A stretch of DNA of 32,000 nt, taken from NCBI RefSeq assembly GCF_900232105.1, contig NZ_LT934425.1:3690001-3722000 (forward strand), given 5' to 3'. The position numbers and the translations under genes are program-made. The notes under the pieces were generated by a model that did no database searches, was not told the origin of the DNA, and worked only from the letters and a program-made list of their open reading frames with translations. Below are positions 6,017 through 30,952 of this stretch, piece after piece. This stretch comes from Candidatus Kuenenia stuttgartensis (GTDB taxonomy: Bacteria; Planctomycetota; Brocadiia; Brocadiales; Brocadiaceae). Every line of letters starts with the position of its first letter. The first letter of the stretch is position 1.

Positions 6017-6035
6017 TTAACCTTTGGCCAGATAA

Positions 6036-7745: not shown

Positions 7746-7768
7746 TTATATATTGAAGGGAGTTTAAA

Positions 7769-9368: not shown

Positions 9369-9418
9369 AACATCCATGCCGGTGTTCGACTGTAATGTTT
9401 ACGCTGAATAGTTACATT

Positions 9419-9742
9419 TTATTTTCGGTCTTGATTTTTTTTGTAATGAATGTTGGATGGTGAGTAACCGTTTGCTTGCAGAAAATGGAGAAGTTTTTTA
9501 CTTGCCTTCTGTTCTCTTGAATAGTCTGGCAGCCAGAATTTTGTGGTATCAATCCCGCTGACGGTTTTGTTCCTGGAATTTATAACGTAAGTTTTTTGTT
9601 CAGAAGTAGCACTCTGGTATTTGACAAGGATGATACCGTCATTCGGGTCAAAATCGACTTCAATACGCATACCCTCATCGTCGTATATCTTTCCAATAGC
9701 CTTCACTATATCAACTAATTCATCCAAAGAGTTTCTCTTCAT
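9419..9742 (-). CDS. hypothetical protein (107 aa)
   Basis: This is the only sizeable ORF in a 940-bp gap and it runs convergent to glgC. Its amino-acid composition is balanced and looks like a real protein. I see no SD and recognise no family. Confidence 0.45.
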   Translation of the reverse strand: MKRNSLDELVDIVKAIGKIYDDEGMRIEVDFDPNDGIILVKYQSATSEQKTYVINSRNKTVSGIDTTKFWLPDYSREQKASKKLLHFLQANGYSPSNIHYKKNQDRK

Positions 9743-9867
9743 ATTTTATAATGCAGCAAAAAGCTGCAACCAAAAAGAATTTAACCACGAATCCGCCTTA
9801 CCTACCCACAAAACATAAAAAATCTTTTAGAACCCAACCTAACTGGCATGGACGGAACCAAACAAGG

Positions 9868-9916
9868 ACGAAATACGAAACACGAAATACGAAATTCTAA
9901 GTACGAAATACGAAAC
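9868..9916. repeat. tandem heptanucleotide array (ACGAAAT/ACGAAAC x6 with one divergent unit)
   Basis: The units read acgaaat acgaaac acgaaat acgaaat tctaagt acgaaat acgaaac. Related arrays occur at 13393-13413, 13499-13522 (inverted) and 31003-31030. Confidence 0.85.
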
Positions 9917-9927
9917 AAATTCCATAA

Positions 9928-9990
9928 TCCACCCCTGCACCCCCGCCAGCGGGGGACATTCTGCCTCCTTTGTAGGGGATTAGGGGGAGG
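9928..9990. repeat. GC-rich palindromic repeat module
   Basis: tccacccctgcacccccgccagcgggggac...tgtaggggattagggggagg resembles the ccacccct/aggggattgagggg modules at 5901-5969 and 27759-27826. Confidence 0.6.
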
Positions 9991-10229
9991 ATATTTAGGA
10001 TTTCACCAGTAAATATTTTGCCAAAAAATGCAAGGAAATTACCTGCTTAATTCTCATTGCAATTGTACAGGAATCTTCATTTTATGAAAGCGTTTTTATA
10101 GTGGTGTTTCCAGAAGTCAAAGATTGAGGCAGGCATCAAAAAATTATAGCAAAAGTCATGCGGAGAAAGCGATGTTACGGTTCTTTACACGATTGGCGTG
10201 ATTTGAATGCAAAAAATAATAAATAATAA

Positions 10230-10257
10230 TTGACAATATTGTTTTTTATTATACAAT
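10230..10257 (+). promoter_or_regulatory. sigma-70-like promoter of the porin-like gene
   Basis: TTGACA (10230-10235), a 16-nt spacer, then TACAAT (10252-10257). The predicted transcription start is near 10264, just before the TGAGTCTCA palindrome. Confidence 0.45.
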
Positions 10258-10271
10258 CCTAGACGTGTGAG

Positions 10272-10284
10272 ATTGAGTCTCAAT
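10272..10284. promoter_or_regulatory. conserved palindromic box ATTGAGTCTCAAT (copy 1 of TGAGTCTCA motif)
   Basis: Perfect 6-1-6 palindrome. It lies 14 nt downstream of the -10 hexamer and 14 nt upstream of the SD GGAGG (10299-10303). Confidence 0.5.
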
Positions 10285-10309
10285 ATAGTTTTTAGGATGG
10301 AGGTGTGAT

Positions 10310-11785
10310 GTGAGGTATGTGTGTTTAATTGTTGTATTTGGAGGTATAGGGGTTTTTACTCCGCAGGCATTTGCCCAATCAGGAGATACGGAAATGTTAA
10401 ATAACCGTGTGCAGGCGCTTGAAAACCAATTACAAGAGATTAAGGAACTATTGAAAAACCAAGTATCGAGAGACATGCAGAAAGATGAAGAGATTGCTGA
10501 CTTGAAAAAACAATTAGCTGCGCAAGCGGATGTGGTAAGTAGTAAGGCAGAGAGTGTTCCTGCGGCTTATGCGGGCATGGATGATCAACAAATCACTGCA
10601 GGACAGGAAATGGAAAAGGACTTTTATCTGGCAAAAAAGAGTTCTGAAATGGTGGATAAAGACCTTGGGTCTGCATTTGGAGGGGTTTACACAAAGCCCT
10701 TTTTGAGACGATTCGGCAGGAATACGTATCTTGGAGGATATATGGATTTTGAATTCAGGGCGCCGGAAGATGAAGACGCCGCACACGGGTTTACCCAGAA
10801 AAGATTCATACCGTTTATCTATTCAGACATATCTGACCGTGTAAAACTGGCGACGGAAATTGAGTTTGAGTTCGGCGGCGTTGGCGGCGGCAGATCCGGC
10901 GAAGTGATTCTTGAATTTGGAACTATCGATTTCCTGGTAACCGAATGGATCAACTGGAGAGGCGGCTATCTTCTTACGCCTTTAGGAAAGTTTAATCTTG
11001 TCCATGATTCTCCGATACAGGACCTCACTGACCGACCACTTGTTAACCAGTTGATTATTCCAACCACGCTTACCGATCTGGGGATGGGCTTTTTTGGCTC
11101 GCTCTATCCAACGGAACTGAGCAAGCTCAATTATGAAATTTATGTTACGAATGGTGCGTTCAGGGGGCTGGATAAAGATGGCGATATAAGTATCGGAGAA
11201 ATGAACGGATTAAGAAGCGCAAAGGGGGGGTATAATAATGATAATTATAATAAAAGTCCCGCCGTTGTCGGGCGTGTTTCTTTTAGTCCGTTCATCGGGC
11301 TCGATTTGGGGGGATCTGCGTATACAAGCAGGTATGACGAAAATAACAATAACCAGTTGACCATTTCCGCCCTTGATTTTACCTATCAAAGGGGTGCATT
11401 TGAATTCCTGGGTGAGGGCGCATATGCATTTGTTGAGACGGATGATTTTGCAAAGGATTCAGGGATTACTGATGATATGTGGGGATATTACCTTGAGGCT
11501 CGTTACCACTTTATGCCGTCTTTCCTGAGAAACATGTCCCCAACACTGTTTGGCGATAATTCAACATTTACCGGAGTAGTGCGATGGGATCAGGTGCAGA
11601 CGGCAGGCAGGGATGATGATTTTGCAAAAGTCCATTGGCTGAGATCGAGGGTTACGCCGGGCATTAATTACCGGTACACAGAGGACACGGTATTTAAACT
11701 GGATTATCAAATCAACATGGAAAATAAAGATATGCCTGACGAAGCAAATAACGCATTTCTGTTTTCTGTGGCAACATATTTTTAA
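10310..11785 (+). CDS. outer-membrane beta-barrel porin-like protein with N-terminal coiled coil
   Basis: 491 aa with a GTG start 6 nt after GGAGG. It has a signal peptide (VFGGIGVFTPQAFAQ) and a heptad coiled-coil segment (LNNRVQALENQLQEIKELLKNQ). Alternating aromatic and Gly-rich strands end in a C-terminal ...FSVATYF, the terminal-Phe signature of outer membrane proteins. Confidence 0.8.
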   Translation: MRYVCLIVVFGGIGVFTPQAFAQSGDTEMLNNRVQALENQLQEIKELLKNQVSRDMQKDEEIADLKKQLAAQADVVSSKAESVPAAYAGMDDQQITAGQEMEKDFYLAKKSSEMVDKDLGSAFGGVYTKPFLRRFGRNTYLGGYMDFEFRAPEDEDAAHGFTQKRFIPFIYSDISDRVKLATEIEFEFGGVGGGRSGEVILEFGTIDFLVTEWINWRGGYLLTPLGKFNLVHDSPIQDLTDRPLVNQLIIPTTLTDLGMGFFGSLYPTELSKLNYEIYVTNGAFRGLDKDGDISIGEMNGLRSAKGGYNNDNYNKSPAVVGRVSFSPFIGLDLGGSAYTSRYDENNNNQLTISALDFTYQRGAFEFLGEGAYAFVETDDFAKDSGITDDMWGYYLEARYHFMPSFLRNMSPTLFGDNSTFTGVVRWDQVQTAGRDDDFAKVHWLRSRVTPGINYRYTEDTVFKLDYQINMENKDMPDEANNAFLFSVATYF

Positions 11786-17629: not shown

Positions 17630-18616
17630 ATGAACAGAAATAAAAAGATTTATTCGATACTTTTTTTTTTGATACTGGCAACAGGGATTTCTGTAACGGC
17701 TTATTACAGGTCCGGAAATGCAGAAGAGCATTCTCAATATGAACATGCAAAATCGGATGTAAAAAACAAGTTAGGTAAAAAAAGCAAAAAGATTAGCTTT
17801 ACCAATGATATATTGCCGCTCTTTACTGAGCCACAAAAAAGAGGCGGTGAGGAATCGGTTGTATGCGTCAGATGCCATTTTACGAGTCTTACCATAGAAA
17901 GCAGCGGAATTCAGGAAAACGCCTTTGCAGAATTTAGCCTGGGGTCATATGCGGATATTATGGCAGGGGCTGACGCAGGTACAGAACCTATTATTGATAT
18001 TGAAGATCCTGATATAAGCTTGTTGTTGCAAAGGCTGGAGGGAAAGGGCGATGATATGGCGGCGGGCGACGCGCGCATGCCATACGGCGGCCCGTTTTTT
18101 AAAAAAAATAAAATCAAAAAAATCCGCACCTGGATAGAACAGGGGGCAATTGATGATACTCCGGAACCTGATTTTAATCGTGATGTACTTCCACTGTTGA
18201 CTAAATCGGTAAATGGCAATATTCCTTGCAGTCTATGTCACTATAATAATAATGATGCTAGTTCCAAAGAACGTTCGCCTGCTCAGGCATGCATGGATTT
18301 GACAAGTTGGGAGGGGATAATATCAGGTGCTGACGGGATTGAACACGAGGAACTTGTGGATAGAGAAAACCCATCGAATAGTTTACTAGTACGACGGCTG
18401 CGCGGTCAGGTAACGGAAGAGGAAAAAGAAAATGATCACAGAATGCCTTACGGAGGCCCCTATTTTAGCGAATATGAAATCCAGAAGATAGAGCGCTGGA
18501 TAGCCAGCGGGGCAAAGGGGCCTAATGGTGAGGATCCCAGTGAGGCAGACATCAGCGATGCAGGGGTATGTCCCGAAGGAAGTGGCAGCGGCAGCGGAAG
18601 TGGAAACGATAAATGA
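17630..18616 (+). CDS. dihaem Planctomycete-type cytochrome c (two PSCyt1-like repeats) with Gly/Ser tail
   Basis: 328 aa with AAGGAG 5 nt upstream and an N-terminal transmembrane/signal segment. It has two internal repeats, each with CxxCH (CVRCH, CSLCH) ... SLL(L/V)(Q/R)RL.G ... RMPYGGP(F/Y)F ... I..WI..GA, the pattern I recognise as the Planctomycete cytochrome C domain. It ends PEGSGSGSGSGNDK. Confidence 0.85.
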   Translation: MNRNKKIYSILFFLILATGISVTAYYRSGNAEEHSQYEHAKSDVKNKLGKKSKKISFTNDILPLFTEPQKRGGEESVVCVRCHFTSLTIESSGIQENAFAEFSLGSYADIMAGADAGTEPIIDIEDPDISLLLQRLEGKGDDMAAGDARMPYGGPFFKKNKIKKIRTWIEQGAIDDTPEPDFNRDVLPLLTKSVNGNIPCSLCHYNNNDASSKERSPAQACMDLTSWEGIISGADGIEHEELVDRENPSNSLLVRRLRGQVTEEEKENDHRMPYGGPYFSEYEIQKIERWIASGAKGPNGEDPSEADISDAGVCPEGSGSGSGSGNDK

Positions 18617-19458: not shown

Positions 19459-21341
19459 TGTTACTCTTTGTAACGGATGTTCACCCCTGCCAAAACGCAT
19501 AAGTGCTTAATACATAGTTTGTTAAGGCTGTATTTTTAATAAATATGTAGTCACTAATATATTGTTATTATACGACAATATACTTGACGGATAATGGTTG
19601 TTATCTGTACAATGGTGGACATGCATATTGTAGAGAACAAGTCAAAATCCGGTAAAAAAATCTATCGATCTACCCTTCTGCGGGAATCGTACCGTGAGGA
19701 TGGGAAGGTCAAGAAACGCACCATTGCGAATCTGTCGAATTGCACTCCCCTGGAGATTGAAGCGATAAGACTTGCACTCGCACATAAAGACGATCTCTGT
19801 GCATTGGGCGCATTGTCAGAATCGGTGAAACTCCATGAGGGTTTGTCTATGGGAGCAGCGTGGAGCGTGTACCAAGTGGCAAAGGAATTAGGGATAGAAG
19901 AGGCATTGGGAAAGGACTTTGAAGGAAAGCTGGCGCTTTGGCAAGTAATGGCAAGGGTAATAGGCCAGGGGTCAAGACTGTCTGCAGTAAGGCTGGCGCA
20001 GATACATGCTGCGGGTGACGTCCTGGATATGAAGCGTGGGTTTGACGAGAACAATCTGTACGATAATTTGTCATGGTTGTCAGAGAATCAGGCAAAGATA
20101 GAGCGAAAGCTGTTTGAGTTAAGACGAGGAGGCAATAAGCCGAAGTTGTTTTTGTATGACGTGACGAGCAGTTATTTAGAGGGGAAGTCGAATCATTTTG
20201 GTGAGTACGGGTATAATCGTGACGGCAAAAAGAGGAAAAAACAGATAGTGATCGGTATGCTTTGTGATGAATCCGGGGAGCCGGTATCAACAGAAGTATT
20301 TAGGGGCAACACCCAGGATCCGAAGACCTTTGAATCTCAGGTAAAGAAGGTATTAGAGCGGTTTGGATGCAAAGATGTAACGATTGTAGGAGATCGTGGG
20401 ATGATCAAGACGGTGCAAATCGAAAGTTTACCGGAAGGGTTTCATTACATAACGGCGATAACTAAGCCGCAGATAGAGTCGTTGATAAATAAAGGGATAC
20501 TGCAATTAGGATTGTTCGAAGAAAAGCTCTGCGAGATAAAGGATGATGAGGTTAGATATATTCTGAGGCGCAATCCGGTAAGGGCGGAAGAGATGTCAAA
20601 GACCCGTGTATCAAAATTACAGAGTATAGAGAAATACATCGTGAAGAAGAACAGTTATCTGAAGGAACATCCTAAGTCGTCAGTATCGAAGGCACTGGAA
20701 ACAACAAGGGAAAGGCTAACGAGATTGAAACTTGATGGGTGGGTGCAGATAAAAGAAGAGGATAGGACGCTAAAGATAGAGAGAGATGAGGAAGCATTAA
20801 AGGAGGCATCATACCTTGATGGTTGTTACGCAATCAAGACTGATCTTGAGGAGAACGAGGCGGATACCAATCTGGTACATGAACGATACAAGGATTTAAC
20901 GGAAGTGGAGAAGGCGTTTCGGGACTGTAAGACGGTGAATTTGGAGGTTCGTCCGGTGTATGTAAGAAAGGAGGATAGTACACGGGGACATGTGTTTGTG
21001 GTAATGCTTGCGTACATGATAATTCGAAGGCTGCGCAGAGCGTGGAAGAATTTTGACTTGACGGTAGAGGAAGGTCTCGCACAATTGACGACCATTTGTT
21101 CGATGGAAGTAACAATCAAAGGCCAAAAAGCTAGTTGCCAGAAGATCCCGCGTCCGCGGCAACAATCACATGAATTATTAGAGGCATTACAGATAAAGTT
21201 GCCAGAAGTATTGCCAAGCCGGAACATACGGGTAGTCACTAGAAAAAAGCTTGCTGTTCGGCGTAAAAGTCAATAAATATAAGGCTTTTACGGCACTTTT
21301 GTTTTTTGACTTGGGGTGAACATCCGTTGTAAGTAATAACA
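19459..21341 (+). mobile_element. IS1634-family (IS4-related) insertion sequence, about 1.88 kb, apparently intact
   Basis: A single 560-aa DDE transposase ORF is bounded by imperfect terminal inverted repeats: gttactctttgtaacggatgttcacccc (19460-19487) versus the reverse complement of 21313-21340, gttattacttacaacggatgttcacccc. That is 23/28 identical, including a perfect 16-bp inner run. No target-site duplication is recognisable, so the ends are uncertain to a few nt. Confidence 0.85.
19594..21276 (+). CDS. IS1634-family DDE transposase
   Basis: The N-terminus VENKSKSGKKIYRSTLLRESYREDGKVKKRTIANLS is typical of the family. Catalytic blocks are present: LFLYDVTSSYLEG, IVGDRGMI and YKDLTEVEKAFRDCK (the Y..R...E......K-like region). 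Alternative ATG starts lie at 19612 and 19621. Confidence 0.9.
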   Translation: MVVICTMVDMHIVENKSKSGKKIYRSTLLRESYREDGKVKKRTIANLSNCTPLEIEAIRLALAHKDDLCALGALSESVKLHEGLSMGAAWSVYQVAKELGIEEALGKDFEGKLALWQVMARVIGQGSRLSAVRLAQIHAAGDVLDMKRGFDENNLYDNLSWLSENQAKIERKLFELRRGGNKPKLFLYDVTSSYLEGKSNHFGEYGYNRDGKKRKKQIVIGMLCDESGEPVSTEVFRGNTQDPKTFESQVKKVLERFGCKDVTIVGDRGMIKTVQIESLPEGFHYITAITKPQIESLINKGILQLGLFEEKLCEIKDDEVRYILRRNPVRAEEMSKTRVSKLQSIEKYIVKKNSYLKEHPKSSVSKALETTRERLTRLKLDGWVQIKEEDRTLKIERDEEALKEASYLDGCYAIKTDLEENEADTNLVHERYKDLTEVEKAFRDCKTVNLEVRPVYVRKEDSTRGHVFVVMLAYMIIRRLRRAWKNFDLTVEEGLAQLTTICSMEVTIKGQKASCQKIPRPRQQSHELLEALQIKLPEVLPSRNIRVVTRKKLAVRRKSQ

Positions 21342-21345
21342 AACA

Positions 21346-22320
21346 ATGACTTCCATTGAATCAGGCATTAAGGCCTCTGTGCTTGGTATAATTATTAATA
21401 CAGCGCTGGCAATAATTAAAATCATTACCGGCATCATCGGGCATTCGTATGCATTAATTGCAGACGGCATTGAATCCACTACGGATGTCATCAGTTCTGT
21501 TATCGTATGGAGCGGCCTGAGAATAGCATCAGAACCTCCGGATGAAAAACACCCTTACGGGCATGGAAAGGCAGACTCTATTGCAGGACTGTTTGTTTCC
21601 ATGTTATTATTTGGGGCAGCCTTGTTTATTGCAGTTCATAGTATTAAAGATATTCTGGTTCCCCATAAAACACCTGAATGGTTTACGCTTATCGTATTAG
21701 TGTTTGTCATTGTAACAAAAGAAATACTCTTTCGGTTTGTTATTTCCATCGGAGATTCAATAGACAGTACCGCATTGCAAGGTGACGCATGGCATCATCG
21801 GGCTGACGCACTTACTTCAGCCGCGGCATTAATTGGTATTTCAATTGCTCTTATAGGCGGCAAAGGCTATGAAAGCGCAGACAGTTGGGCGGCTTTATTT
21901 GCATGTGTGATTATAACTTTTAACGGTATGAAACTTTTCAGGACAGCGCTCAATGAGGTAATGGATGCCTCAGCTCCGCAAACAATAAAAGATGAAACCA
22001 TTAGAATGGCAAAACAGGTAGAGGGTGTTTTATCGATCGGGAAATGCAGGATTAGAAAAAGCGGAATTACGCTGCTGGTAGATATTCATGTGCAGGTTGA
22101 AGGTGAGATGAGTGTAATGGAAAGCCATGCGATTGCACACCTGGTAAAAGACGAGCTGATTAATAAAAATGTAAATATCCGCGATGTGGTAGTGCATATA
22201 GAACCGTACCATTCTGATAAAATAAATGTAAAAGAATACAATGGACTTTCATTTTTTTCATATGTAAGCTCAATTTGGTTTTTATTACTTTTATTTGACA
22301 AAAAGGAGAATACCATATGA
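21346..22320 (+). CDS. cation diffusion facilitator (CDF) family divalent-metal transporter
   Basis: 324 aa with six transmembrane segments. The TM2 block is SYALIADGIESTTD and the TM5 block is WHHRADALTS (the metal-site H/D pairs of CDFs). A C-terminal cytoplasmic domain follows, then an extra hydrophobic tail. There is an in-frame TAA at 21337-21339, and the IS end lies 4-5 nt upstream of the ATG. Confidence 0.9.
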   Translation: MTSIESGIKASVLGIIINTALAIIKIITGIIGHSYALIADGIESTTDVISSVIVWSGLRIASEPPDEKHPYGHGKADSIAGLFVSMLLFGAALFIAVHSIKDILVPHKTPEWFTLIVLVFVIVTKEILFRFVISIGDSIDSTALQGDAWHHRADALTSAAALIGISIALIGGKGYESADSWAALFACVIITFNGMKLFRTALNEVMDASAPQTIKDETIRMAKQVEGVLSIGKCRIRKSGITLLVDIHVQVEGEMSVMESHAIAHLVKDELINKNVNIRDVVVHIEPYHSDKINVKEYNGLSFFSYVSSIWFLLLLFDKKENTI

Positions 22321-22386
22321 CTAATAATGCAGTATTTTATTGGTGGATTTTTTAAATAAACATTTATAAGAGGAAATTCGGGAGGG

Positions 22387-23478
22387 ATGGTTATGGGTAT
22401 TTTAAATACATTTAAAAAAGTATATGCAGTGACGGGTTTTTTTGCCTTGTTAGCAGTATTTTCTCTATCGCAGGTGGGGTCCTCTGCTTTTGCCGCGTGT
22501 GCAAAAGTAGATGATTGCTTTTCGTGTCATACCACACAAGAATTAAATGCAGTCCATAAAAATACTCCATACCAGGGACAAAGCTGTATTGTGTGTCACA
22601 AAGCTTTTGCTGCAGATGATACATGCTCAGACGCAAAAGATGGTAGATTCGCAAAAATTTCATCTGAAATAAACATCAACAAAGAAGATTGGAACAAAAT
22701 TCAACGTGCAGTCCATGAGACAACAGAAAAGCATCTTGTAGGGAGAAAATTCTTAAACATTTACGGACCACTTGGAACAGGCGCCCAGAGTGTGCCACTT
22801 GATACGTATGGCCTGCCATCATGGGCAAGCATTGATATGCTGGGCGAGGGCAATGAGGCGATACATCCCCTTAAGAGGGAAATTGCTCAAATATACCTTA
22901 TTTACAAAGACTTTTGGCTTTTCCGGAGAGATATTGAGTTCAGCAAAAAGTGTGAGACGCCCATTGATATAAGTGCTGCAATAGGAGCTGCGGTGTCTGT
23001 TTCCAGGAAAGAGGACGACATGGTTTTTAACGGTTTGTCTGAGATGGGCATTCCGGGGCTTTTGACTGCAAGCGGCAGGAATATAATGAAACTCAGTGAT
23101 TGGTCAGTTATTGGAAACGGCTTTCAGGATGTTGTATTGGCAGTAGAGAAACTGACAAGCAGGGGTTTTAATGGCCCGTTTGCTTTGGTAGTGAGTCCAA
23201 AGTTGTATGCATATCTCCACAGGGTTTATGAGCGTACAGGACAATTAGAGATACAGGGGGTAAAAGAGTTGGTAAACGGGGGTGTTTATCAGAGCTACGT
23301 TTTTAATAAAGATGTGGCGCTCGTAATTGCAACGGGCAGTCTGAATATGGACCTTGCCGTAGGGAGCAATTATAAAGTAGAGTACTGGGGCCCTCAGGAT
23401 CTGAACCACCGGTTCAGGGTTGTGGGGAGTTCTGTGCTCAGGATTAAATGTCCGCAGGCAATTTGTACATTGGAGTAG
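22387..23478 (+). CDS. family-1 encapsulin shell protein with N-terminal Sec signal peptide and dihaem cytochrome c domain
   Basis: 363 aa. Residues 1-37 are signal-peptide-like (...SQVGSSAFA|A). Residues 38-90 carry two CxxCH motifs (CFSCH, CIVCH). Residues about 95-363 match the encapsulin/Linocin-M18 pattern along their full length (EDWNKIQRAVHETTEKHLVGRKFLNIYGPLG..., ...FNGPFALVVSPKLYAYLHRV..., ...YKVEYWGPQD...FRVVGSSVLRIK). The SD GGGAGGG (22380-22386) favours the second ATG at 22393. Confidence 0.9.
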   Translation: MVMGILNTFKKVYAVTGFFALLAVFSLSQVGSSAFAACAKVDDCFSCHTTQELNAVHKNTPYQGQSCIVCHKAFAADDTCSDAKDGRFAKISSEININKEDWNKIQRAVHETTEKHLVGRKFLNIYGPLGTGAQSVPLDTYGLPSWASIDMLGEGNEAIHPLKREIAQIYLIYKDFWLFRRDIEFSKKCETPIDISAAIGAAVSVSRKEDDMVFNGLSEMGIPGLLTASGRNIMKLSDWSVIGNGFQDVVLAVEKLTSRGFNGPFALVVSPKLYAYLHRVYERTGQLEIQGVKELVNGGVYQSYVFNKDVALVIATGSLNMDLAVGSNYKVEYWGPQDLNHRFRVVGSSVLRIKCPQAICTLE

Positions 23479-23481
23479 GTT

Positions 23482-26040
23482 ATGCTTAACAAATCAGCGG
23501 CTTTAGTGCCTGTGGTGCTGGCTTTCCTTTTCCTTTTTCTGTGTTTTCAATGTTTATACGCTGACATCCGCTGTCTTACCGGTAAGGATGGTGCTGTGCA
23601 TTTGGAGATGGAGGCCAAACCCTTAACAATAGAGCCAAGGCCCGGCGTGTTCTTTGATGCCTGGGGGTATTGCCTGAAAGGTGACGTACCCACCGTACCC
23701 GGCCCTGTCATAAAGGTAAGGGAAGGAACTAAGGTTAAGATTCTCTTCAGGAATAAACTGACAGTTCCTGCCTCTATCCACCCTCACGGAGTTAAATATA
23801 CCACCGCCAATGTCGGCGTTAATATTGCCGGGAATCCAGCAAGTATTGTAGCGCCTGGGGATTCAAGGATTTTTGAGTGGGATACTGCCGGCACGCCAGG
23901 CACGTGGTTTTACCACTCCTACGTATTTGAGAGAGGCGGCGAAGAGGGATTATCCAGAGGATTATGGGGAGCGCTTATTGTGGAACCGGTTGGCGGTGAT
24001 CCAAATCCTCCGGATAAAGAGTTTGTGGTATTTATGCATGCATTTAATGTAAACGGACAGGAATACTATGCCTTTAACAATAAATCAGGCGATATTGAGC
24101 TTATGAGGGGAGACAGTTCCGCATTTCCAGGAGAAACATGGAAGGCAAAAATGGGGGACAAGGTAAGGTTTCATCTCATAAATATTACGGAGGAAGCACA
24201 CACTTTTCATACCCACGGGCATCGCTGGCTGGATAAATCTTGTGATAAGCTTATTGATACTATCGGGTTGAATCCATTTGACTCTTATGTCCTGGATTTC
24301 GTTGCCGGTGAAGGTGTGGGGAAGGGTAACTGGGCTTTTCACTGCCAGTCACAGGAACATATGATGAACGGCATGTTCGGTATTTTTATGGTTGAGGAAG
24401 GGAAAAGGGTCAATGCTGTGATTGCATCGTGCGATGAAGGTAGGAAAACACTCAGTGCGCCTGGCCAGGATAGACAGCCTCCAACGCTTGAGGGTTTTTC
24501 AGGTGCTTACATGTATCCGGAAATTACAGAGAAAAACATGTATGAATCATTTGCAGGCTTAGAAAAGGGTGACGGCATTTGGGGTGATTATTATAGCCCT
24601 ATTCCGCTTTATACCTATTTTAATCCTTCACGGCATTATGTTCCTCCGGAAAGCGACGCTTATACAAATCTACTGGTGAAATACAGGCCGGATCAGTGCG
24701 TAGAATGCCATGAGGAAACAACACCTGGTATTGTTGCCGAATGGAAAATGTCCAACCATGCAAATCCAAAGAAAAACCCGCATGTATCCGCTGAGACGCA
24801 GGAGATAGAGGCATTAATCGGGAAAGAGCTGAACAACTGGCGGCCTGGCACAAAGGACGGTGTGTATTGTTCTTACTGCCATGGTTCCGATCATGAAAAA
24901 CTCTTTATGCCCACAGTTGACAATTCATGCGGAGCCTGTCATCCAAAACAAGCAGCGGAATTTATAAAAGGGAGAGATCATGGAAGGCCAAACCACCCTC
25001 AAAGCTGGGAAGGGAATGTATCTACTCCATGGTATGCTGAATACTATCGGCGAGGCGAGGGATATTCTATGGTGGGGTGCGATCAATGCCACCAAAACAT
25101 GTCTTCATGTGATGATTGCCATTCACGCCACCGTTTTTCCGCGGCTGAAGCCCGAAGGCCCGAAGCATGTTCAATTTGTCATATGGGACCTGACCACCCC
25201 GATTGGGAGAGTTATTCACGTTCCAAATGGGGGGTAATTTATGAGACTACAAAAGAGCGGTGGAATTGGGACAAAAACCTTGCGGAGGTTATTCCCGGGG
25301 AAGATTATCTGGCGCCGACTTGTCAATATTGTCATATGTACGTTGGAAATAATAAATGGGAAATGAATGTGGAAACAAAGGGTATATGGCGCATGGGAGT
25401 CATTCCCCCAAAGGAAGTGGAATTTAAATCAGGACTAAAAGACTTCCCCTATGGAATAAAAATACCGCCCATGGATAAAAAACTTGAAATCTATTCTGCT
25501 GAAAGCCAGGAAAAACGCCGCAAATGGGTGGAGCTTTGTTCAAAATGCCATAGCAGCCGCTTTGCCGGCATGTGGCTTGATTCGTTAGACCAATATATGT
25601 TTGAATCATGGCGGCGGATAGACGAAGCGCAGCTTATTATAGAAAAACTTTTTAGTGAGAATGCAATTGAACCTCCTCCGGAGAAAAGGCCTCCCTTTCC
25701 CCTCAGTGATTTGATTATTAAGGTGCTTGGCGCTGAAAAACTGGGGGCTGAAATGTACAGGCTATTTAAACAAACCAACGGGCATTTACCGGTGATAGGC
25801 CCCATTCTTGGCGCTTATTCTATTTTTACCCAAAATGAAGGGAATCCTGGCGGCATAGAAAGGGAATATGCGGAGATGTGGTTCTGGAGCCATTTGCAAG
25901 GTTATAAAGGCGCTGCTCACGCCCAGCCGGATATAAGCTGGTGGTGGGGTACTGCTCAGGGAGTCGGGAATCTGACTCGTATACGGGATGAGGCTGAAAA
26001 ATTAAGACGTTTAAAATCCGGTAGCAGTTCAGGCTTTTGA
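23482..26040 (+). CDS. fusion protein: NirK/multicopper-oxidase-like two-cupredoxin domain plus octahaem hydroxylamine-oxidoreductase (HAO)-like domain; presumptive encapsulin cargo
   Basis: 852 aa, starting 3 nt after the shell gene's stop, with SD GGAG at 23471-23474 inside that gene. Signal peptide: MLNKSAALVPVVLAFLFLFLCFQCLYA. Copper motifs: IHPHG, WFYHSY, HTFHTHGH and HCQSQEHMMNGM. Eight CxxCH motifs lie between nt 24697 and 25551 (CVECH, CSYCH, CGACH, CDQCH, CDDCH, CSICH, CQYCH, CSKCH). The protein ends ...EKLRRLKSGSSSGF. Confidence 0.9.
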   Translation: MLNKSAALVPVVLAFLFLFLCFQCLYADIRCLTGKDGAVHLEMEAKPLTIEPRPGVFFDAWGYCLKGDVPTVPGPVIKVREGTKVKILFRNKLTVPASIHPHGVKYTTANVGVNIAGNPASIVAPGDSRIFEWDTAGTPGTWFYHSYVFERGGEEGLSRGLWGALIVEPVGGDPNPPDKEFVVFMHAFNVNGQEYYAFNNKSGDIELMRGDSSAFPGETWKAKMGDKVRFHLINITEEAHTFHTHGHRWLDKSCDKLIDTIGLNPFDSYVLDFVAGEGVGKGNWAFHCQSQEHMMNGMFGIFMVEEGKRVNAVIASCDEGRKTLSAPGQDRQPPTLEGFSGAYMYPEITEKNMYESFAGLEKGDGIWGDYYSPIPLYTYFNPSRHYVPPESDAYTNLLVKYRPDQCVECHEETTPGIVAEWKMSNHANPKKNPHVSAETQEIEALIGKELNNWRPGTKDGVYCSYCHGSDHEKLFMPTVDNSCGACHPKQAAEFIKGRDHGRPNHPQSWEGNVSTPWYAEYYRRGEGYSMVGCDQCHQNMSSCDDCHSRHRFSAAEARRPEACSICHMGPDHPDWESYSRSKWGVIYETTKERWNWDKNLAEVIPGEDYLAPTCQYCHMYVGNNKWEMNVETKGIWRMGVIPPKEVEFKSGLKDFPYGIKIPPMDKKLEIYSAESQEKRRKWVELCSKCHSSRFAGMWLDSLDQYMFESWRRIDEAQLIIEKLFSENAIEPPPEKRPPFPLSDLIIKVLGAEKLGAEMYRLFKQTNGHLPVIGPILGAYSIFTQNEGNPGGIEREYAEMWFWSHLQGYKGAAHAQPDISWWWGTAQGVGNLTRIRDEAEKLRRLKSGSSSGF

Positions 26041-26085
26041 AAAAGCAAAGGCATTCGTTGGCAGGATTTTAAGTTTTTTATATGT

Positions 26086-27192
26086 ATGAGCGTGTTAAGA
26101 GTGTTGAACCGTCGTTACAAAAATCGATATTTTCAGATGAATAATTGTGTGAATTACAAAAAAGAGATAGTTAAAAATAGCATAAAATGGCTCTTCCCCA
26201 TAGCATTGCCGTTTGTTATTTATTGGGTTTTATTTTCGAAAATGAGGCCGGAAGATTTTCTCGTTACGATAAAAAATGCGTCTGTTCTCTGGTTAGCATT
26301 AGGGTTTATTGCCTATAGCGCAAACCAGGCATTTCGCACATTACGTTTTCAATGCCTTATCCACACAAAAAAGACATTGAGAAAACAATTGTTCCGGGTG
26401 CAGTCATTATACATTTTTTATAACTACTTGCTGCCTTTTAGGACCGGAGAGGCTACGTATATATATCTTGCGCGAAAGCATTTGAACATTCCTGTGGCGA
26501 ACGGTATCTCTTCCCTTGTGGTTGCAAGGATGTTTGATTACTCACTTCTTATTGTATGTTGCGGGATAATAGCATTATGTATGAAATTGCGCATGACACC
26601 CTGGATAAGCATGCTAATGAAAGGCGGGGCAGTATTGTTTTTTGCGATTACCGCATTGTTTATTTTGTGCATGTTAAGGAAGAATACCTATGTGGTATGG
26701 ATAGGGGAAAAAAGTAATTTTTTCGCTTTGTGGCAGGAAAATAAATTAATCCAAAAATTTTCAGGAGAGTTTCAGAAAATTGTACAGAGCTTCAGGGAAA
26801 TCAGTAATATCAGGACAGGCCTTCAAACCGTTTTTTATACACTATGTACCTGGTTGTGCATATTCCTGGCTTTTTATATGATTACCAGGGGATTAGGGTA
26901 TTCTGTAAGCTTTTTGCAGATGACAGCCGTATCGGTTATCGCCGTAATGTCAAGGGCGTTTCAGGGGGTCGCGGATTTTGGTTCACACGAGATGGGATGG
27001 TTCGGAGGACTGGTGCTTATCGGGTTTTCAGGGAAAGACGCCAGTATCGTATCTTTTTCATCACACATAATTATACTGTGTTATATGCTGGTTGTTACCA
27101 TTTATTCAAAAATTACTTTGAGAAAATACGATGCTATCGCAGCGGCGCCATGTATTTTGAAAGAAAGATATGGAAGGAGCGTCGGAGAATAA
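26086..27192 (+). CDS. UPF0104 / lysylphosphatidylglycerol-synthase-TM-region (flippase-like) family integral membrane protein
   Basis: 368 aa with about 8 transmembrane segments. It contains the family block AFRTLRFQCLI...NYLLPFRTGEATYIYLARKH. The start is uncertain (ATG 26086 or ATG 26137). It lies 45 nt downstream of the fusion gene. Confidence 0.75.
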   Translation: MSVLRVLNRRYKNRYFQMNNCVNYKKEIVKNSIKWLFPIALPFVIYWVLFSKMRPEDFLVTIKNASVLWLALGFIAYSANQAFRTLRFQCLIHTKKTLRKQLFRVQSLYIFYNYLLPFRTGEATYIYLARKHLNIPVANGISSLVVARMFDYSLLIVCCGIIALCMKLRMTPWISMLMKGGAVLFFAITALFILCMLRKNTYVVWIGEKSNFFALWQENKLIQKFSGEFQKIVQSFREISNIRTGLQTVFYTLCTWLCIFLAFYMITRGLGYSVSFLQMTAVSVIAVMSRAFQGVADFGSHEMGWFGGLVLIGFSGKDASIVSFSSHIIILCYMLVVTIYSKITLRKYDAIAAAPCILKERYGRSVGE

Positions 27193-27197
27193 TTTTA

Positions 27198-27225
27198 TTG
27201 ACAATCAGATTTTTTTTAGTATTAT
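27198..27225 (+). promoter_or_regulatory. sigma-70-like promoter of the DUF2325 gene
   Basis: TTGACA (27198-27203), a 16-nt spacer, then TATTAT (27220-27225). The TTGACAAT hexamer context and layout are the same as at 10230. Confidence 0.4.
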
Positions 27226-27233
27226 ATTGCGAA

Positions 27234-27242
27234 TGAGTCTCA
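27234..27242. promoter_or_regulatory. TGAGTCTCA box, copy 3
   Basis: Context gcgaaTGAGTCTCAataac. It lies 8 nt after the -10 hexamer and 12 nt before the SD GGAGG (27255-27259). Confidence 0.5.
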
Positions 27243-27266
27243 ATAACAATATTTGGAGGATTGAAA

Positions 27267-27584
27267 ATGTCTGTATTGATAGTGGGCGGCGATCATCTGG
27301 GGAGTATTCCAAAGGAGCTTGATAAAATAGGGGTGAATGATATAAAACATCTGGCTGGGAGAAGCAATCAAAAGATGCGAAACAGCATTCCTGAGTCAAT
27401 GGATTTTATTATTGTATTGTGTGATTACGTGAACCATAACCTTTCACACAAAATTAAAGAGTATGCAAGTTTGAAGGAAATACCTGTTGTTTATGCAAAA
27501 AGATCATGGTCGTCCATTTATCAAAAGATAAAGGATAACCAGTGTCAGCTTAAAAAGAAGGGGTTGCTGTTCCCACTTAATTAA
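27267..27584 (+). CDS. DUF2325 domain-containing protein
   Basis: MSVLIVGGDHLGSIPKELDKIGV.DIKHLAGR...MDFIIVLCDYVNH matches my recollection of the DUF2325 family. The ATG at 27267 lies 7 nt after GGAGG; the track start at TTG 27261 is less likely. Confidence 0.8.
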   Translation: MSVLIVGGDHLGSIPKELDKIGVNDIKHLAGRSNQKMRNSIPESMDFIIVLCDYVNHNLSHKIKEYASLKEIPVVYAKRSWSSIYQKIKDNQCQLKKKGLLFPLN

Positions 27585-28660: not shown

Positions 28661-30952
28661 ATGAAATATAATACTACTCTAAAGATAACCATTGTGTTTT
28701 TCATTGTATCTGTTTTTCTTTGCAAGGGCGCCTTTGCCGGTGTTTCATATACGTTGAGCAGAAATGCGGACTTTTCTACGGATGACAGGGCTTTTCTCGC
28801 CACGGATACCCTCTTTGTGAAGATATCACAAAATAAGTATGACTATCATGACGTTACAAAATCTGTTTTTACTTTAAAAGAAAAGGGTAAAAACTCAAAA
28901 AATGAATTTGAATTAACCTGGAATACGGCTCAAAGCGCGTTCACAGGTTCAGTTTCGTTCGGTGATTATGAGGTTGGCAAAAAAATAACAATCAAGATAC
29001 TACTGGAATGGAAAGATTATAAAATCAGAAAAAAAGCGCGTCTTGTGGTAGGTACGTATGAAACGTGGGAGATTGCCGGAACCGTTTATGATAAATATTC
29101 AGGTAATATAAAAGATGCCCGGGTAAGGATACAGGGGATGGCGGATATTAATAAAAATGATGAGAGCTATTATCCGGAAGATGAAGCACACTATGTGCTC
29201 TCTGACGAAGACGGAAGTTTTTTAATTACATACGAGGGCATTTCCGGACAGGAAGTCATAGTTGCCGCAGGCAAAGAAGGATTTAAAAATGCGGGTAAAG
29301 AAATAATTTTGGGGGAGGATGATTTTGCAGAGATTGCCCTTTCAACGTTTCCGGAGAAAGACCATTCTGATTATGAATACCGGACGAGTAAAAATTGTAA
29401 AAAGTGTCACAGTAATATTTATAATGAATGGAATGACAGCGAGATGGCAGCCTCGGCGATGAATCCGATAAATCAACTGAACTTTCTTTTATATACCGCA
29501 TGGTACGTGACGGGTGACCGCTCAAATTTTGAAGATGATTCAATCTTTAACGATCCGAATCCTGAATTTGTAGGCGATAAGGGGAAAATATTTGAAGACG
29601 ACACCGGCAGATATAAGATTCTCGGAGACGCGGGGAATCTTCACGATTGCGCTGATTGTCATTCTCCTTCGTTTGCATCCGGTTTACAGGGCGACGGTAA
29701 GACACCAAAATGGGATATGAGGGCAGGTGTTTTGACTGATGTTGATAATTTATCTTCAATAGACAAACAGGGTGTTCATTGTGATTTTTGTCATAAGATT
29801 CAAAATGTGCATGATGGGGAAGAGTATTGGACGGAACCAGGCGTGAATTATAAAGTTGACCTTTTACGTCCCGATCCTTCCCTGGAATCCTCAAAAGAGG
29901 GGAAGGTGATGTTTGGGCCTTTTGACGATGTTACATATAAAAGTATGCAGGCATCGTACGTTCCTCTGTTTAAAAAGAGTGAAATATGCACCTCCTGCCA
30001 TCAGGATGCACGGAAATTATATTTACAACCGGTAGACGAAAATGATCAACCTACGGGCGAAGAAACCATTGAGAGAATATTATGGAGTGAAGATACATAT
30101 CGCGAATGGAGATTTAGCGGTTATAGCGGATTGGAAGAAGATTATCCGGTAAACAATTATGCAGGGCGGGCGCTGCAGTGTCAGGATTGCCATATGAAAG
30201 ACCCACCCCCTGACCCCGCAACGGGCAAATCTATTGCAAATTATAAAGAGGTCACAGATTCATTTTATATGTTGTCCGAAGACAAAAAGCAGTCGGGGAC
30301 CAGCCGCGACCCCAGAACCATATATCCTCACCATTTTGAAGGAACCAATCAAAACCTTCCGGTTGGCGAAAAGAAACGATATCTTGATTGGGCGGTGGAT
30401 CTTTCAGTTTCGAATGCCAGTGTCACTGATGGTATTGTCAGTTTTGATGTGGATGTGAAAAATTCACATACGGGTCATGCTTACCCATCCGGTGTTACGC
30501 AACGAAATGTCGTTTTATATGTGGAAGTAACGCAAACAGGAAATTCTCTTAGTCAAACCAATGATCAAGTCGTTGATACCCCGGGAGGAAATTTCCCGAA
30601 TGGCTATTATAATGGTGAAGGAGACTATGCAGGGAAGTCGGGCAAAATATTCATAAAACATAACAGGATGCTTGAAGATAACAAGGATCTGGATCCTTTT
30701 TTCAATGATATATTGTATGCCTTTGCCGTTGAGGAATTGTACGATACGCGCATCAAGGCGAATGAGACAGACACCACACACTATGAGTTCCAAACACTGG
30801 ACAACAGCACAATAACCATCACTGCAAGGCTTATTTACCGCTTTTATCCGAAAGGAACGCTTGAATTTGCGGCGCAAAACGGATATGTGATTTCTTCCCT
30901 GGAGGAAAATGATTATGAATCGCATAAAGTGGAAATAACCGTAGAGCCGTAA
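28661..30952 (+). CDS. secreted pentahaem cytochrome c with CarboxypepD_reg-like Ig domain
   Basis: 763 aa starting 2 nt after the HD-GYP stop. Signal peptide: ...VSVFLCKGAFA|G. Five CxxCH motifs: CKKCH, CADCH, CDFCH, CTSCH and CQDCH. The first is in the c554-like context CKKCHSNIYNEW. An Ig-like domain is present at WEIAGTVYDKYSGNIKDARVRIQG...DGSFLI. Confidence 0.88.
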   Translation: MKYNTTLKITIVFFIVSVFLCKGAFAGVSYTLSRNADFSTDDRAFLATDTLFVKISQNKYDYHDVTKSVFTLKEKGKNSKNEFELTWNTAQSAFTGSVSFGDYEVGKKITIKILLEWKDYKIRKKARLVVGTYETWEIAGTVYDKYSGNIKDARVRIQGMADINKNDESYYPEDEAHYVLSDEDGSFLITYEGISGQEVIVAAGKEGFKNAGKEIILGEDDFAEIALSTFPEKDHSDYEYRTSKNCKKCHSNIYNEWNDSEMAASAMNPINQLNFLLYTAWYVTGDRSNFEDDSIFNDPNPEFVGDKGKIFEDDTGRYKILGDAGNLHDCADCHSPSFASGLQGDGKTPKWDMRAGVLTDVDNLSSIDKQGVHCDFCHKIQNVHDGEEYWTEPGVNYKVDLLRPDPSLESSKEGKVMFGPFDDVTYKSMQASYVPLFKKSEICTSCHQDARKLYLQPVDENDQPTGEETIERILWSEDTYREWRFSGYSGLEEDYPVNNYAGRALQCQDCHMKDPPPDPATGKSIANYKEVTDSFYMLSEDKKQSGTSRDPRTIYPHHFEGTNQNLPVGEKKRYLDWAVDLSVSNASVTDGIVSFDVDVKNSHTGHAYPSGVTQRNVVLYVEVTQTGNSLSQTNDQVVDTPGGNFPNGYYNGEGDYAGKSGKIFIKHNRMLEDNKDLDPFFNDILYAFAVEELYDTRIKANETDTTHYEFQTLDNSTITITARLIYRFYPKGTLEFAAQNGYVISSLEENDYESHKVEITVEP

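What the first reader, a model, noticed from the sequence alone, without database searches (positions are those of the whole stretch)
22387..22668. The encapsulin carries a Sec-type signal peptide and c-type haem motifs, so assembly should occur outside the cytoplasm with haems facing the lumen
Seen in the sequence: residues 1-37 (MVMGILNTFKKVYAVTGFFALLAVFSLSQVGSSAFA|A) have the n-h-c layout of a Sec signal with an AxA cleavage site. CFSCH and CIVCH follow immediately. The fusion partner gene also begins with a signal peptide.

Established knowledge: covalent haem attachment to CxxCH occurs only after export, via the Ccm or Ccs system. Characterised encapsulins are cytoplasmic, and their N-termini point into the shell lumen, where the cargo-peptide pocket lies.

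Inference: this shell must be exported unfolded, matured and assembled in the periplasm or anammoxosome lumen. If the usual topology holds, a T=1 60-mer would line its interior with 120 haems. That raises the question of how electrons cross the shell wall, unless the extension threads outward or sits at pores.
Basis: partly seen in the sequence, partly recalled or inferred. Interest (0 to 1): 0.85.

Follow-up and report, generated by a model that had tools for sequence, protein, structure and literature searches.

The report
Known exported dihaem encapsulin of Kuenenia

Summary
ORF 22387..23478 (+) encodes a family 1 encapsulin. It starts with an n-h-c signal peptide (AFA|A after residue 36), followed by CFSCH (44-48) and CIVCH (67-71). 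The downstream Cu-oxidase/octahaem fusion gene also starts with a signal peptide.

The protein is identical to UniProt Q1Q6L7 (kuste2478), named "Diheme-cytochrome-encapsulin shell fusion protein" of Ca. Kuenenia stuttgartiensis. The same 36-residue signal peptide, the dihaem domain and the export-then-assemble hypothesis are already published:
- Medema 2010
- Giessen & Silver 2016/17
- Andreas & Giessen 2021
- a 2024 review
- a 2026 preprint

So the finding is a rediscovery.

One detail is wrong. The shell belongs to the T=3/T=4 clade and forms 33 nm particles described as 180-mers. That gives about 360 haem sites per shell, not 120 in a T=1 60-mer.

My comparisons add three points:
- Every full-length Brocadiales encapsulin has the signal peptide, including the many without haem motifs.
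- A lipoprotein signal is excluded.
- Two related loci carry tandem haem-less and dihaem shell genes.

Destination, signal-peptide cleavage, covalent haem in the native protein and domain orientation remain experimentally open.

The parts
22380..22386 (+). Shine-Dalgarno-like GGGAGGG. It abuts ATG 22387 and lies 6 nt before ATG 22393.
   Evidence: Sequence read. The 361-aa annotation dominates.
22387..22494 (+). Sec-type signal peptide, residues 1-36. n-region 1-11 (K10, K11), h-region 12-27, c-region 28-36 ending A-F-A. Predicted SPase I cut between nt 22494 and 22495. The true start is probably M3 at nt 22393.
   Evidence: The same design occurs in about 50 Brocadiales homologues. The identical 36-aa peptide was predicted by SignalP 4.1 in 10.1101/085266. 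Medema 2010 supplement lists SP = Y and class 'A'.
22495..22611 (+). Dihaem cytochrome c module, residues 37-75. Includes the conserved C38, K40, D43, E52, H57, K58 and Y62.
   Evidence: Alignment A1 invariant columns. No significant Pfam family. No free-standing close relative among 1.84e9 representatives.
22516..22530 (+). Haem-binding motif 1, C44-F-S-C47-H48.
   Evidence: Invariant in 21 sequences.
22585..22599 (+). Haem-binding motif 2, C67-I-V-C70-H71.
   Evidence: Invariant in 21 sequences. Chance of two motifs 2.5e-5.
22612..22671 (+). Short linker, residues 76-95, ending in the conserved (K/R)FA(E/K)I(S/T)SE motif. About 20 columns shorter than the aligned Brocadia/Jettenia linkers.
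   Evidence: Alignment A1.
22672..23478 (+). Family 1 encapsulin shell (HK97-fold) domain, residues 96-363, plus the stop codon.
   Evidence: Pfam PF04454 E 2e-59. PDB EncA 4pt2 E 1.5e-70. AF2 pLDDT above 90 and Foldseek TM 0.95 to EncA T=3 protomers.
23482..26040 (+). Partner/cargo gene kuste2479: signal peptide (residues 1-27), then a two-domain multicopper oxidase ('NIR'), then an octahaem HAO-like domain. It starts 3 nt after the shell gene's stop codon.
   Evidence: Adjacent to the shell gene in nearly every related locus that is long enough; L020 ends too soon to show it.
21346..22320 (+). Cation diffusion facilitator (Cation_efflux + ZT_dimer) immediately upstream. It recurs upstream of the shell gene in related loci.
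   Evidence: L002 and L007 synteny.
26086..27192 (+). LPG_synthase_TM-family membrane protein downstream. It is in the same position in Ca. Kuenenia hertensis.

Best explanation
The gene is cEnc (kuste2478) of Ca. Kuenenia stuttgartiensis, a family 1 encapsulin shell protein made as a pre-protein.

1. A cleavable Sec signal peptide (residues 1-36, or 3-36 if M3 is the start) takes the unfolded chain across a membrane, most probably the anammoxosome membrane.
2. Signal peptidase I cuts after A-F-A36.
3. The System II (CcsA/CcsB) machinery on the far side attaches haem to C44/C47 (axial H48) and C67/C70 (axial H71).
4. The HK97-fold domain then folds and self-assembles there into a T=3-type shell of about 180 subunits and 33 nm.
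5. As in other family 1 shells, the N-terminus points inwards, so up to about 360 haems line the lumen.
6. The co-translated and separately exported Cu-oxidase/HAO fusion (kuste2479) is taken up without a classical targeting peptide, helped by contact with the dihaem domain.
7. The haems then act as the electron relay between the enclosed enzyme and the outside.

Shown here: the sequence features, their conservation, the fold and the T=3-clade affinity, and the gene linkage. From the literature: haem binding, particle size, and NIR domain co-purification. Inferred: the destination, the cleavage, native covalent haem, the orientation, and the electron relay.
For: **Signal peptide.**
- Anatomy.
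- A signal peptide with a conserved x-[FYW]-A| or x-F-G| site occurs in all full-length Brocadiales homologues and is absent from non-anammox encapsulins.
- No RR motif in this n-region, and none that resembles a Tat motif in the others; three homologues have an incidental RR.
- The residue before the conserved Cys is A, K or N, or the Cys is missing, so there is no lipobox.

**Haem motifs.** CxxCH x2 invariant; chance of two motifs 2.5e-5.

**Shell.**
- Encapsulin domain E 2e-59.
- Nearest solved shells are the EncA (T=3 structures) and 6nj8 group.
- AF2 mean pLDDT 86.7, and Foldseek rmsd 1.4-1.8 A to EncA T=3 protomers.

**Partner.** It has its own signal peptide, lies 3 nt downstream, and is linked to the shell gene in about 20 loci.

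**Literature.**
- SignalP prediction of the same 36 residues; 33 nm particles; 418 to 422/527/554 nm spectrum; about 30 versus 15 NIR copies per 180-mer with and without the cytochrome domain (10.1101/085266).
- Classified as anammoxosomal by a random forest, 93.3% (PMC2881027 supplement).
- System II proposed at the anammoxosome membrane (PMC4222556).
- Encapsulin reported in an anammoxosome-enriched proteome (cited in PMC6934571 and the 2026 preprint).
- Signal-peptide-bearing constructs halve E. coli growth rate.
Against: - No direct evidence for cleavage, for covalent haem in the native protein, or for localisation of assembled shells.
- The signal peptide cannot distinguish periplasm from anammoxosome. 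Sec is predicted on both membranes and no sorting signal is known.
- The only haem spectrum comes from a signal-peptide-less construct in E. coli. Haem can therefore associate without export, and covalent linkage was not demonstrated in the text read.
- The anammoxosome proteomic signal was described as low.
- AF2 does not place the dihaem domain (pLDDT 38-72).
- Many close relatives lack the haem domain yet keep the signal peptide and the partner gene. The haems therefore cannot be essential for cargo capture or for the system's basic function.
- Full-length NIR-HAO loading has never been shown, because the protein was insoluble.
Confidence: 0.7

Rival explanations
1. The same exported dihaem shell goes to the periplasm (across the cytoplasmic membrane), not to the anammoxosome lumen.
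For: Sec is predicted on both membranes and no organelle-specific signal is known (PMC2881027). The July 2026 preprint on the Brocadia homologue of the partner enzyme says signal peptides cannot be linked to either compartment.
Against: - The random-forest classifier puts kuste2478 and kuste2479 in the organellar class at 93.3%.
- Cytochrome c maturation is proposed at the anammoxosome membrane.
- Encapsulin was reported in an anammoxosome-enriched proteome, and electron-dense particles of about 25 nm are seen in the organelle.
Confidence: 0.12
2. The protein is exported and assembled as described, but the dihaem domains sit outside the shell or at its pores. They would then be an external electron-entry module, not a lumenal lining.
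For: - The linker and conserved FAEISSE segment could in principle thread outwards.
- A 2024 review proposes that the Cytc domains pass electrons across the shell (PMC11664910).
- About 180 extra 6-kDa haem domains plus a trimeric cargo of about 90 kDa per subunit would crowd the lumen.
- cEnc particles are larger than domain-less Enc particles, 33 nm versus 29 nm.
Against: - By general knowledge of solved family 1 shells, the N-terminus is lumenal.
- The shell domain aligns from residue 96 onto EncA residue 11 with no rearrangement.
- The NIR domain co-purifies better when the domain is present.
Confidence: 0.12
3. The hydrophobic N-terminus is an uncleaved signal anchor, so protomers or shells stay tethered to the membrane.
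For: Cleavage has never been measured for this protein; no MS-validated site was found in the Medema 2010 supplement search.
Against: - A small-x-small site (AFA, VFA, VYA, AFG) sits at a fixed distance after the h-region in about 50 homologues.
- The h-region is about 16 residues, which is short for a transmembrane anchor.
- Signal-peptide-less protein assembles into free particles.
- 180 membrane anchors are hard to reconcile with a closed shell whose N-termini point inwards.
Confidence: 0.04
4. The signal is a lipoprotein (SPase II) signal: ...S-A-F-A-A-C38 read as a lipobox, giving an N-terminally lipidated shell protein.
For: In K. stuttgartiensis the string F-A-A-C fits a permissive lipobox pattern, and C38 is conserved in at least 90% of dihaem homologues.
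Against: - In homologues the residue before that Cys is K (VYAKC, IFAKC) or N (VFANC).
- P0012 has no Cys there (AFAEF).
- Haem-less forms have AFA|DG or VFA|NG with no Cys.
- The conserved element is x-F/Y-A|, not the Cys.
Confidence: 0.01
5. The start codon is mis-called: translation begins downstream (GTG codon 30 or later) and the protein is a cytoplasmic encapsulin.
For: An in-frame GTG at nt 22474 exists, and one fragmentary gene call starts there (P0128).
Against: - No Shine-Dalgarno sequence lies before the GTG, whereas a strong one lies before ATG 22387/22393.
- The n-h-c features upstream are conserved across homologues of 50-70% identity.
- CxxCH motifs imply export.
- There is no start codon near the point (about residue 96) where ordinary encapsulins begin.
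Confidence: 0.01

Closest known systems
cEnc / kuste2478 (UniProt Q1Q6L7), 'Diheme-cytochrome-encapsulin shell fusion protein' of Ca. Kuenenia stuttgartiensis, with its partner NIR-HAO kuste2479 (Q1Q6L6)
   Same: Identical sequence over all 363 residues (exact look-up). The published 36-residue signal peptide string is the same, as are the operon partner and the hypothesis of Sec export, haem maturation and assembly in the anammoxosome.
   Different: Nothing: this is that gene.
Myxococcus xanthus EncA (PDB 4pt2, 7s20), a family 1 encapsulin with T=3 shell structures
   Same: Shell domain about 44% identical, E 1.5e-70, aligned end to end from residue 96. Predicted fold TM 0.95, rmsd 1.4-1.8 A to T=3 protomers.
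   Different: By my knowledge, EncA is cytoplasmic and loads cargo through C-terminal targeting peptides. As shown here, EncA has no signal peptide and no N-terminal fusion (287 aa, aligned from its residue 11). cEnc has a signal peptide and a dihaem domain, and its partner lacks a targeting peptide.
N-terminal fusion encapsulins of family 1 (the Pyrococcus furiosus Flp-fusion type, PDB 2e0z)
   Same: A functional domain fused to the N-terminus of the shell protein, and so expected inside the shell (review PMC11664910). 2e0z matches the shell at E 1e-17.
   Different: The fused domain is a ferritin-like protein rather than a c-type cytochrome. There is no signal peptide, and by my knowledge assembly is cytoplasmic.
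Haem-less signal-peptide encapsulins of other Brocadiales (Ca. Kuenenia hertensis, Ca. Loosdrechtia aerotolerans, Scalindua-type)
   Same: Same clade of shell domains, same kind of signal peptide, same Cu-oxidase/multihaem partner. In K. hertensis the flanking genes are also the same.
   Different: An Ala/Gly/Glu/Pro-rich or His-rich spacer of 30-60 residues replaces the dihaem module, so there are no CxxCH motifs.
Sec-exported multihaem proteins of the anammoxosome (the HAO/HDH family)
   Same: N-terminal Sec signal peptide plus CxxCH motifs, with System II maturation proposed at the anammoxosome membrane.
   Different: Those are soluble enzymes. Here the exported haem protein is itself a capsid-like shell subunit.

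Membership tests
Family 1 (classical) encapsulin shell protein | Sequence match to the Linocin_M18/encapsulin family (PF04454) above the curated threshold | tested here: met
   201.3 bits against a cut-off of 24.3, E 2.1e-59, residues 96-346.
Family 1 (classical) encapsulin shell protein | HK97 phage-like fold | tested here: met
   AF2 model has pLDDT above 90 over the shell domain. Foldseek E 8e-39, TM 0.91-0.95 to M. xanthus EncA.
Family 1 (classical) encapsulin shell protein | Self-assembly into an icosahedral shell | not testable with these tools
   Literature only: 33 nm particles from E. coli, 29 nm without the cytochrome domain (10.1101/085266).
Family 1 (classical) encapsulin shell protein | Dedicated cargo encoded next to the shell gene and loaded through a targeting peptide | tested here: inconclusive
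   An adjacent conserved partner gene is present in about 20 loci. The literature reports no targeting peptide in NIR-HAO and shows only partial co-purification of the NIR domain.
   Thermotoga maritima encapsulin (T=1 by my knowledge) scores E 4e-11, against 1.5e-70 for EncA, which has T=3 structures. Rmsd is about 7 A to the T. maritima and mycobacterial shells, against 1.4-1.8 A to T=3 protomers. Published as 33 nm 180-mers.
c-type cytochrome | CxxCH haem-attachment motif(s), conserved | tested here: met
   Two motifs at residues 44-48 and 67-71, invariant in 21 homologues. Chance of two motifs 2.5e-5.
c-type cytochrome | Haem covalently bound through thioether bonds | not testable with these tools
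   Literature: a dithionite-reducible spectrum with peaks at 422/527/554 nm, from a signal-peptide-less construct. No haem stain or mass was seen in the text read.
c-type cytochrome | Sixth (distal) axial ligand available for each haem | tested here: inconclusive
   Only one further near-invariant His (H57) and no conserved Met. Conserved candidates are C38, K40, K58 and Y62.
Sec (SPase I) signal peptide | Positively charged n-region, hydrophobic h-region of 7-15 or more residues, and a c-region with small residues at -3 and -1 | tested here: met
   K10 and K11; V12-L27 (KD12 2.39); A34-F-A36|A37. The design is conserved in about 50 homologues. SignalP runs reported. No SignalP tool was available here.
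Sec (SPase I) signal peptide | Actual cleavage and translocation | not testable with these tools
   No MS-validated site for kuste2478 was found in the Medema 2010 supplements.
Tat signal peptide | Twin-arginine motif (S/T-R-R-x-F-L-K) in the n-region | tested here: not met
   No RR in this n-region; it is Lys-based in nearly all homologues, three of which have an incidental RR that does not fit the Tat motif. The 2016 preprint's phrase 'reminiscent of twin-arginine' was later replaced by 'Sec-like'.
Bacterial lipoprotein (SPase II) signal | Lipobox [LVI][ASTVI][GAS]-C with an invariant Cys at +1 | tested here: not met
   The residue before the Cys is A, K or N; the Cys is missing in P0012 and in all haem-less forms.

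The most novel reading that the evidence does not exclude
Export is an ancestral trait of all Brocadiales encapsulins and does not depend on haem. The dihaem module would be a later, repeatedly lost accessory. In some Brocadia-type genomes a haem-less and a dihaem shell paralogue sit in tandem; in L004 they are 88.6% identical in the shell domain. These two may co-assemble into mixed two-component exported shells in which only some subunits carry haems. That would ease the crowding problem and tune how many electron-relay sites line the shell. None of the papers read here mentions either the haem-less signal-peptide forms as a class or the tandem arrangement.
Probability: 0.3. Interest if true: 0.55.

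Novelty: already known. Interest (0 to 1): 0.22.

Why it matters
By my knowledge, an encapsulin made outside the cytoplasm is unusual. It implies that a virus-capsid-like shell can fold and assemble after Sec translocation, inside a bacterial organelle, around a separately exported metalloenzyme. That point is already recognised in the encapsulin literature, so the finding opens no new question.

What is still open is experimental:
- where the shells sit
- whether the native protein carries covalent haem
- where the haem domains face
- what the Cu-oxidase/HAO cargo does

The comparative results here show a universal signal peptide, an optional haem domain and occasional tandem shell genes. They narrow the hypotheses: export is the core trait, and the haems are an add-on.

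Tried and rejected
**Lipoprotein reading (F-A-A-C38).** Rejected by comparison with homologues.

**Alternative downstream start (GTG at codon 30).** It exists but is unsupported.

**Tat signal.** No twin arginine.

**Searches for a free-standing relative of the dihaem module.**
- A 43-residue query in the word-indexed database returned nothing. That query was too short and cost one search.
- Exhaustive phmmer with 59 residues found only cEnc itself plus generic repeated CxxCH matches in large multihaem proteins.
- BLASTP against the other ORFs of the window gave only motif-level hits.
- Pfam gives only a sub-threshold MtrC/MtrF hit, E 0.004.

**AF2 model of the mature protein, meant to place the dihaem domain.** The shell is confident, but the domain has pLDDT 38-72, as expected without haem. 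Orientation could not be judged.

**Promoter/terminator scan of 21200-27400.** Fewer promoter-like sites than in shuffles, so it was uninformative.

**Full-text search for kuste2478.** No hits in the main texts; the gene appears only in supplements.
Full report
**What is there.** The finding's coordinates (22387-22668) are the first 94 codons of a 363-codon ORF, 22387..23478 on the + strand.
- Residues 96-346 match the encapsulin family PF04454 at E 2e-59.
- The N-terminus reads MVMGILNTFKK / VYAVTGFFALLAVFSL / SQVGSSAFA | A. That is a Lys-containing n-region, a 16-residue hydrophobic core (best 12-residue Kyte-Doolittle mean 2.39) and a c-region ending A-F-A.
- CFSCH (residues 44-48, nt 22516-22530) and CIVCH (residues 67-71, nt 22585-22599) follow.
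- Two such motifs occur in only 2.5e-5 of composition-preserving shuffles of the 94 residues.
- The next gene starts 3 nt after the stop codon (23482..26040). It encodes a signal peptide (…CLYA|D, hydrophobicity 3.26), two multicopper-oxidase domains and an octahaem HAO-like domain.

**Identity.** An exact-sequence look-up shows the protein is UniRef100_Q1Q6L7, named "Diheme-cytochrome-encapsulin shell fusion protein" of Candidatus Kuenenia stuttgartiensis. The neighbour is the [quoted passage not shown]. These are kuste2478 and kuste2479.

**What is already published.**
- Medema et al. 2010 (PMC2881027) list kuste2478 in their supplement as a "conserved hypothetical (diheme) protein". It has a predicted signal peptide, a Linocin_M18 domain, and a 93.3% random-forest vote for the anammoxosome class.
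- Giessen & Silver (bioRxiv 10.1101/085266) printed the same 36-residue signal peptide, predicted with SignalP 4.1. They also:
  - described the N-terminal dihaem c-type domain with its conserved motifs;
  - stated that the N-termini point inwards, so the inner surface is lined with dihaem domains;
  - showed 33 nm particles (29 nm without the domain);
  - recorded a dithionite-reducible spectrum (422/527/554 nm);
  - measured co-purification of the NIR domain at about 30 versus 15 copies per 180-mer.
[quoted passage not shown] It suggests the domains carry electrons across the shell.
- A June 2026 preprint reports that constructs carrying the Sec peptide halve the growth rate of E. coli.

**Independent tests of the signal peptide.** A database search found 199 relatives.
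- All of the roughly 50 full-length sequences from Brocadiales have a positively charged n-region. They also have a hydrophobic core with KD12 of about 2.0 or more starting at residues 4-20, and a small-x-small site (VFA|, VYA|, AFA|, AFG|) some 30-40 residues in.
- The roughly 65 non-anammox encapsulins are about 280 residues long. They start directly at the shell's N-helix and have no such segment.
- The same holds in 20 further genomic loci.
- The n-regions are Lys-based and lack a Tat-like twin arginine, so the signal is Sec-type, not Tat.

I considered a lipoprotein signal because F-A-A-C38 fits a loose lipobox and C38 is conserved. In homologues, however, the residue before that Cys is K or N, one sequence lacks the Cys, and the haem-less forms have none. 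The conserved element is the x-F/Y-A cleavage site, so that reading is rejected.

**Start codon.** GGGAGGG (22380-22386) abuts the first ATG and lies 6 nt before the second ATG (22393). Most genome annotations call the 361-residue product, and M3 aligns with the start of at least 90% of homologues. The signal peptide is probably 34 residues, which does not change the argument.

**Shell geometry.**
- The nearest solved shells are M. xanthus EncA, with T=3 structures (E 1.5e-70), and Quasibacillus thermotolerans 6nj8 (E 2.8e-65). Thermotoga maritima encapsulin, the classic T=1 shell by my knowledge, scores only E 4e-11.
- The AF2 model (mean pLDDT 86.7, shell above 90) superposes on EncA T=3 protomers at 1.4-1.8 A. 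It superposes on the T. maritima and mycobacterial shells only at about 7 A.
- No solved structure of cEnc itself is in the PDB copy; the best identity is 44%.

**What the comparison adds.**
- Many Brocadiales encapsulins keep the signal peptide and the Cu-oxidase/multihaem neighbour but have no CxxCH motif. Examples are:
  - Ca. Loosdrechtia aerotolerans (L001);
  - Ca. Kuenenia hertensis (L002/L026), with the same flanking genes as the window: CDF transporter, shell, partner, LPG_synthase_TM;
  - a Brocadiia MAG (L005);
  - Scalindua-type loci (L003).
- In a neighbour-joining tree of shell domains (no bootstrap), the basal lineages are haem-less, and dihaem and haem-less forms are interleaved in the crown. 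Export therefore looks older than, and independent of, the haem domain. The haem domain is not needed for linkage to the partner enzyme.
- Two loci (L004, L012) carry a haem-less and a dihaem shell gene in tandem upstream of the partner, and a third MAG probably does too. Both copies have signal peptides. In L004 the two shell domains are 88.6% identical. None of the papers read mentions this. It raises the possibility of mixed shells.

**Mechanism and its weak points.** The best-supported model is:
1. Sec translocation of the unfolded pre-protein.
2. SPase I cleavage at AFA|A.
3. Haem attachment by System II, which anammox genomes encode and which is proposed to sit in the anammoxosome membrane (PMC4222556).
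4. Folding and T=3-type assembly in that lumen with the dihaem domains inside.
5. Capture of the separately exported partner enzyme.

Several steps are inferred rather than shown:
- **Destination.** Sec is predicted on both membranes and no sorting signal is known. The July 2026 preprint on the Brocadia partner enzyme says the compartment cannot be assigned from the signal peptide.
- **Cleavage.** It has never been measured for this protein.
- **Native covalent haem.** The published spectrum came from a construct without the signal peptide. The premise that haem attaches only after export is therefore not absolute. By my knowledge, spontaneous cytoplasmic maturation has been reported for some c-type cytochromes in E. 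coli.
- **Domain orientation.** My model cannot place the domain (pLDDT 38-72).

Only one additional near-invariant His (H57) is available for two haems, and there is no conserved Met. C38, K40, K58 and Y62 are conserved, so at least one haem may have unusual axial ligation.

**Verdict.** The feature is real and correctly read, apart from the T number. It is an already described protein with an already published interpretation. Novelty: already known. Interest as a new finding is low. The side observations (universal signal peptide, optional haem domain, tandem shell genes) are modest extensions worth a note.

Noticed in passing
L004:6001-7011 and 7290-8423 (partner 8572-11079); L012: about 3231-4205 and 5004-6143 (partner from about 6144): Two related Brocadia-type loci carry two tandem signal-peptide encapsulin genes, one haem-less followed by one dihaem, upstream of the Cu-oxidase/HAO gene. 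The shell domains are 88.6% (L004) and 75% (L012) identical within the pair. MAG VGXX01 (L020 + L028) may have the same arrangement. The papers read do not mention this. It suggests mixed two-component shells.
   Followed up: partly
P0013, P0019, P0020, P0025-P0045, P0047-P0055; loci L001, L002/L026, L003, L005: Many Brocadiales encapsulins lack CxxCH motifs but keep the signal peptide and the partner gene. Ca. Kuenenia hertensis has the haem-less form in the same synteny as this window. Basal lineages are haem-less in an NJ tree, so export appears to predate the haem domain.
   Followed up: partly
window 21346-22320; L002, L003, L007: A cation-diffusion-facilitator gene lies directly upstream of the shell gene here and in relatives. 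FeoA/FeoB, an Fe-dependent repressor, a VIT1/rubrerythrin-like gene, ApbE and a thioredoxin/AhpC-like gene recur nearby. This metal/iron theme fits the published iron-storage speculation. The thioredoxin-like gene that sits between the CDF and shell genes in relatives is absent from this window.
   Followed up: no
window 22387-22395: There are two in-frame ATGs (M1, M3). The Shine-Dalgarno spacing, most annotations (361 aa) and homologue alignment favour M3 at 22393.
   Followed up: yes
window 22495-22611 (residues 37-75): Only one extra near-invariant His (H57) is available for two haems, and there is no conserved Met. C38, K40, K58 and Y62 are conserved, so at least one haem may have non-His/His axial ligation. 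The Kuenenia linker is about 20 columns shorter than the aligned Brocadia/Jettenia linkers (published description: about 35 residues).
   Followed up: no
P0039, P0015 (N-terminal extensions): Some haem-less forms have His-rich stretches (HHGHHGGAH, EEQHHHRE) where the dihaem module would be. This hints at metal binding on the lumenal N-terminus.
   Followed up: no
window 19594-21276: A 560-aa ORF with no significant Pfam match. It looks like a transposase (my impression from the sequence, untested) and sits between a dihaem protein gene (17630-18616) and the CDF gene. It may be an insertion into the conserved neighbourhood.
   Followed up: no
window 17630-18616, 28661-30952, 1866-3227: Three further signal-peptide-bearing c-type cytochrome genes lie in the window: a dihaem (CVRCH, CSLCH), a pentahaem of 763 aa, and a tetrahaem c554-like. 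A roughly 765-aa Cytochrome_C7-like gene recurs near the shell gene in L004, L007 and L008. These may correspond to the 'c1/c554' secondary-cargo candidates in the literature.
   Followed up: no
literature (10.1101/085266, Methods): The only haem spectrum for cEnc came from a construct lacking the signal peptide, expressed in E. coli. It does not test the native export-dependent maturation route, and it does not by itself prove covalent attachment.
   Followed up: partly
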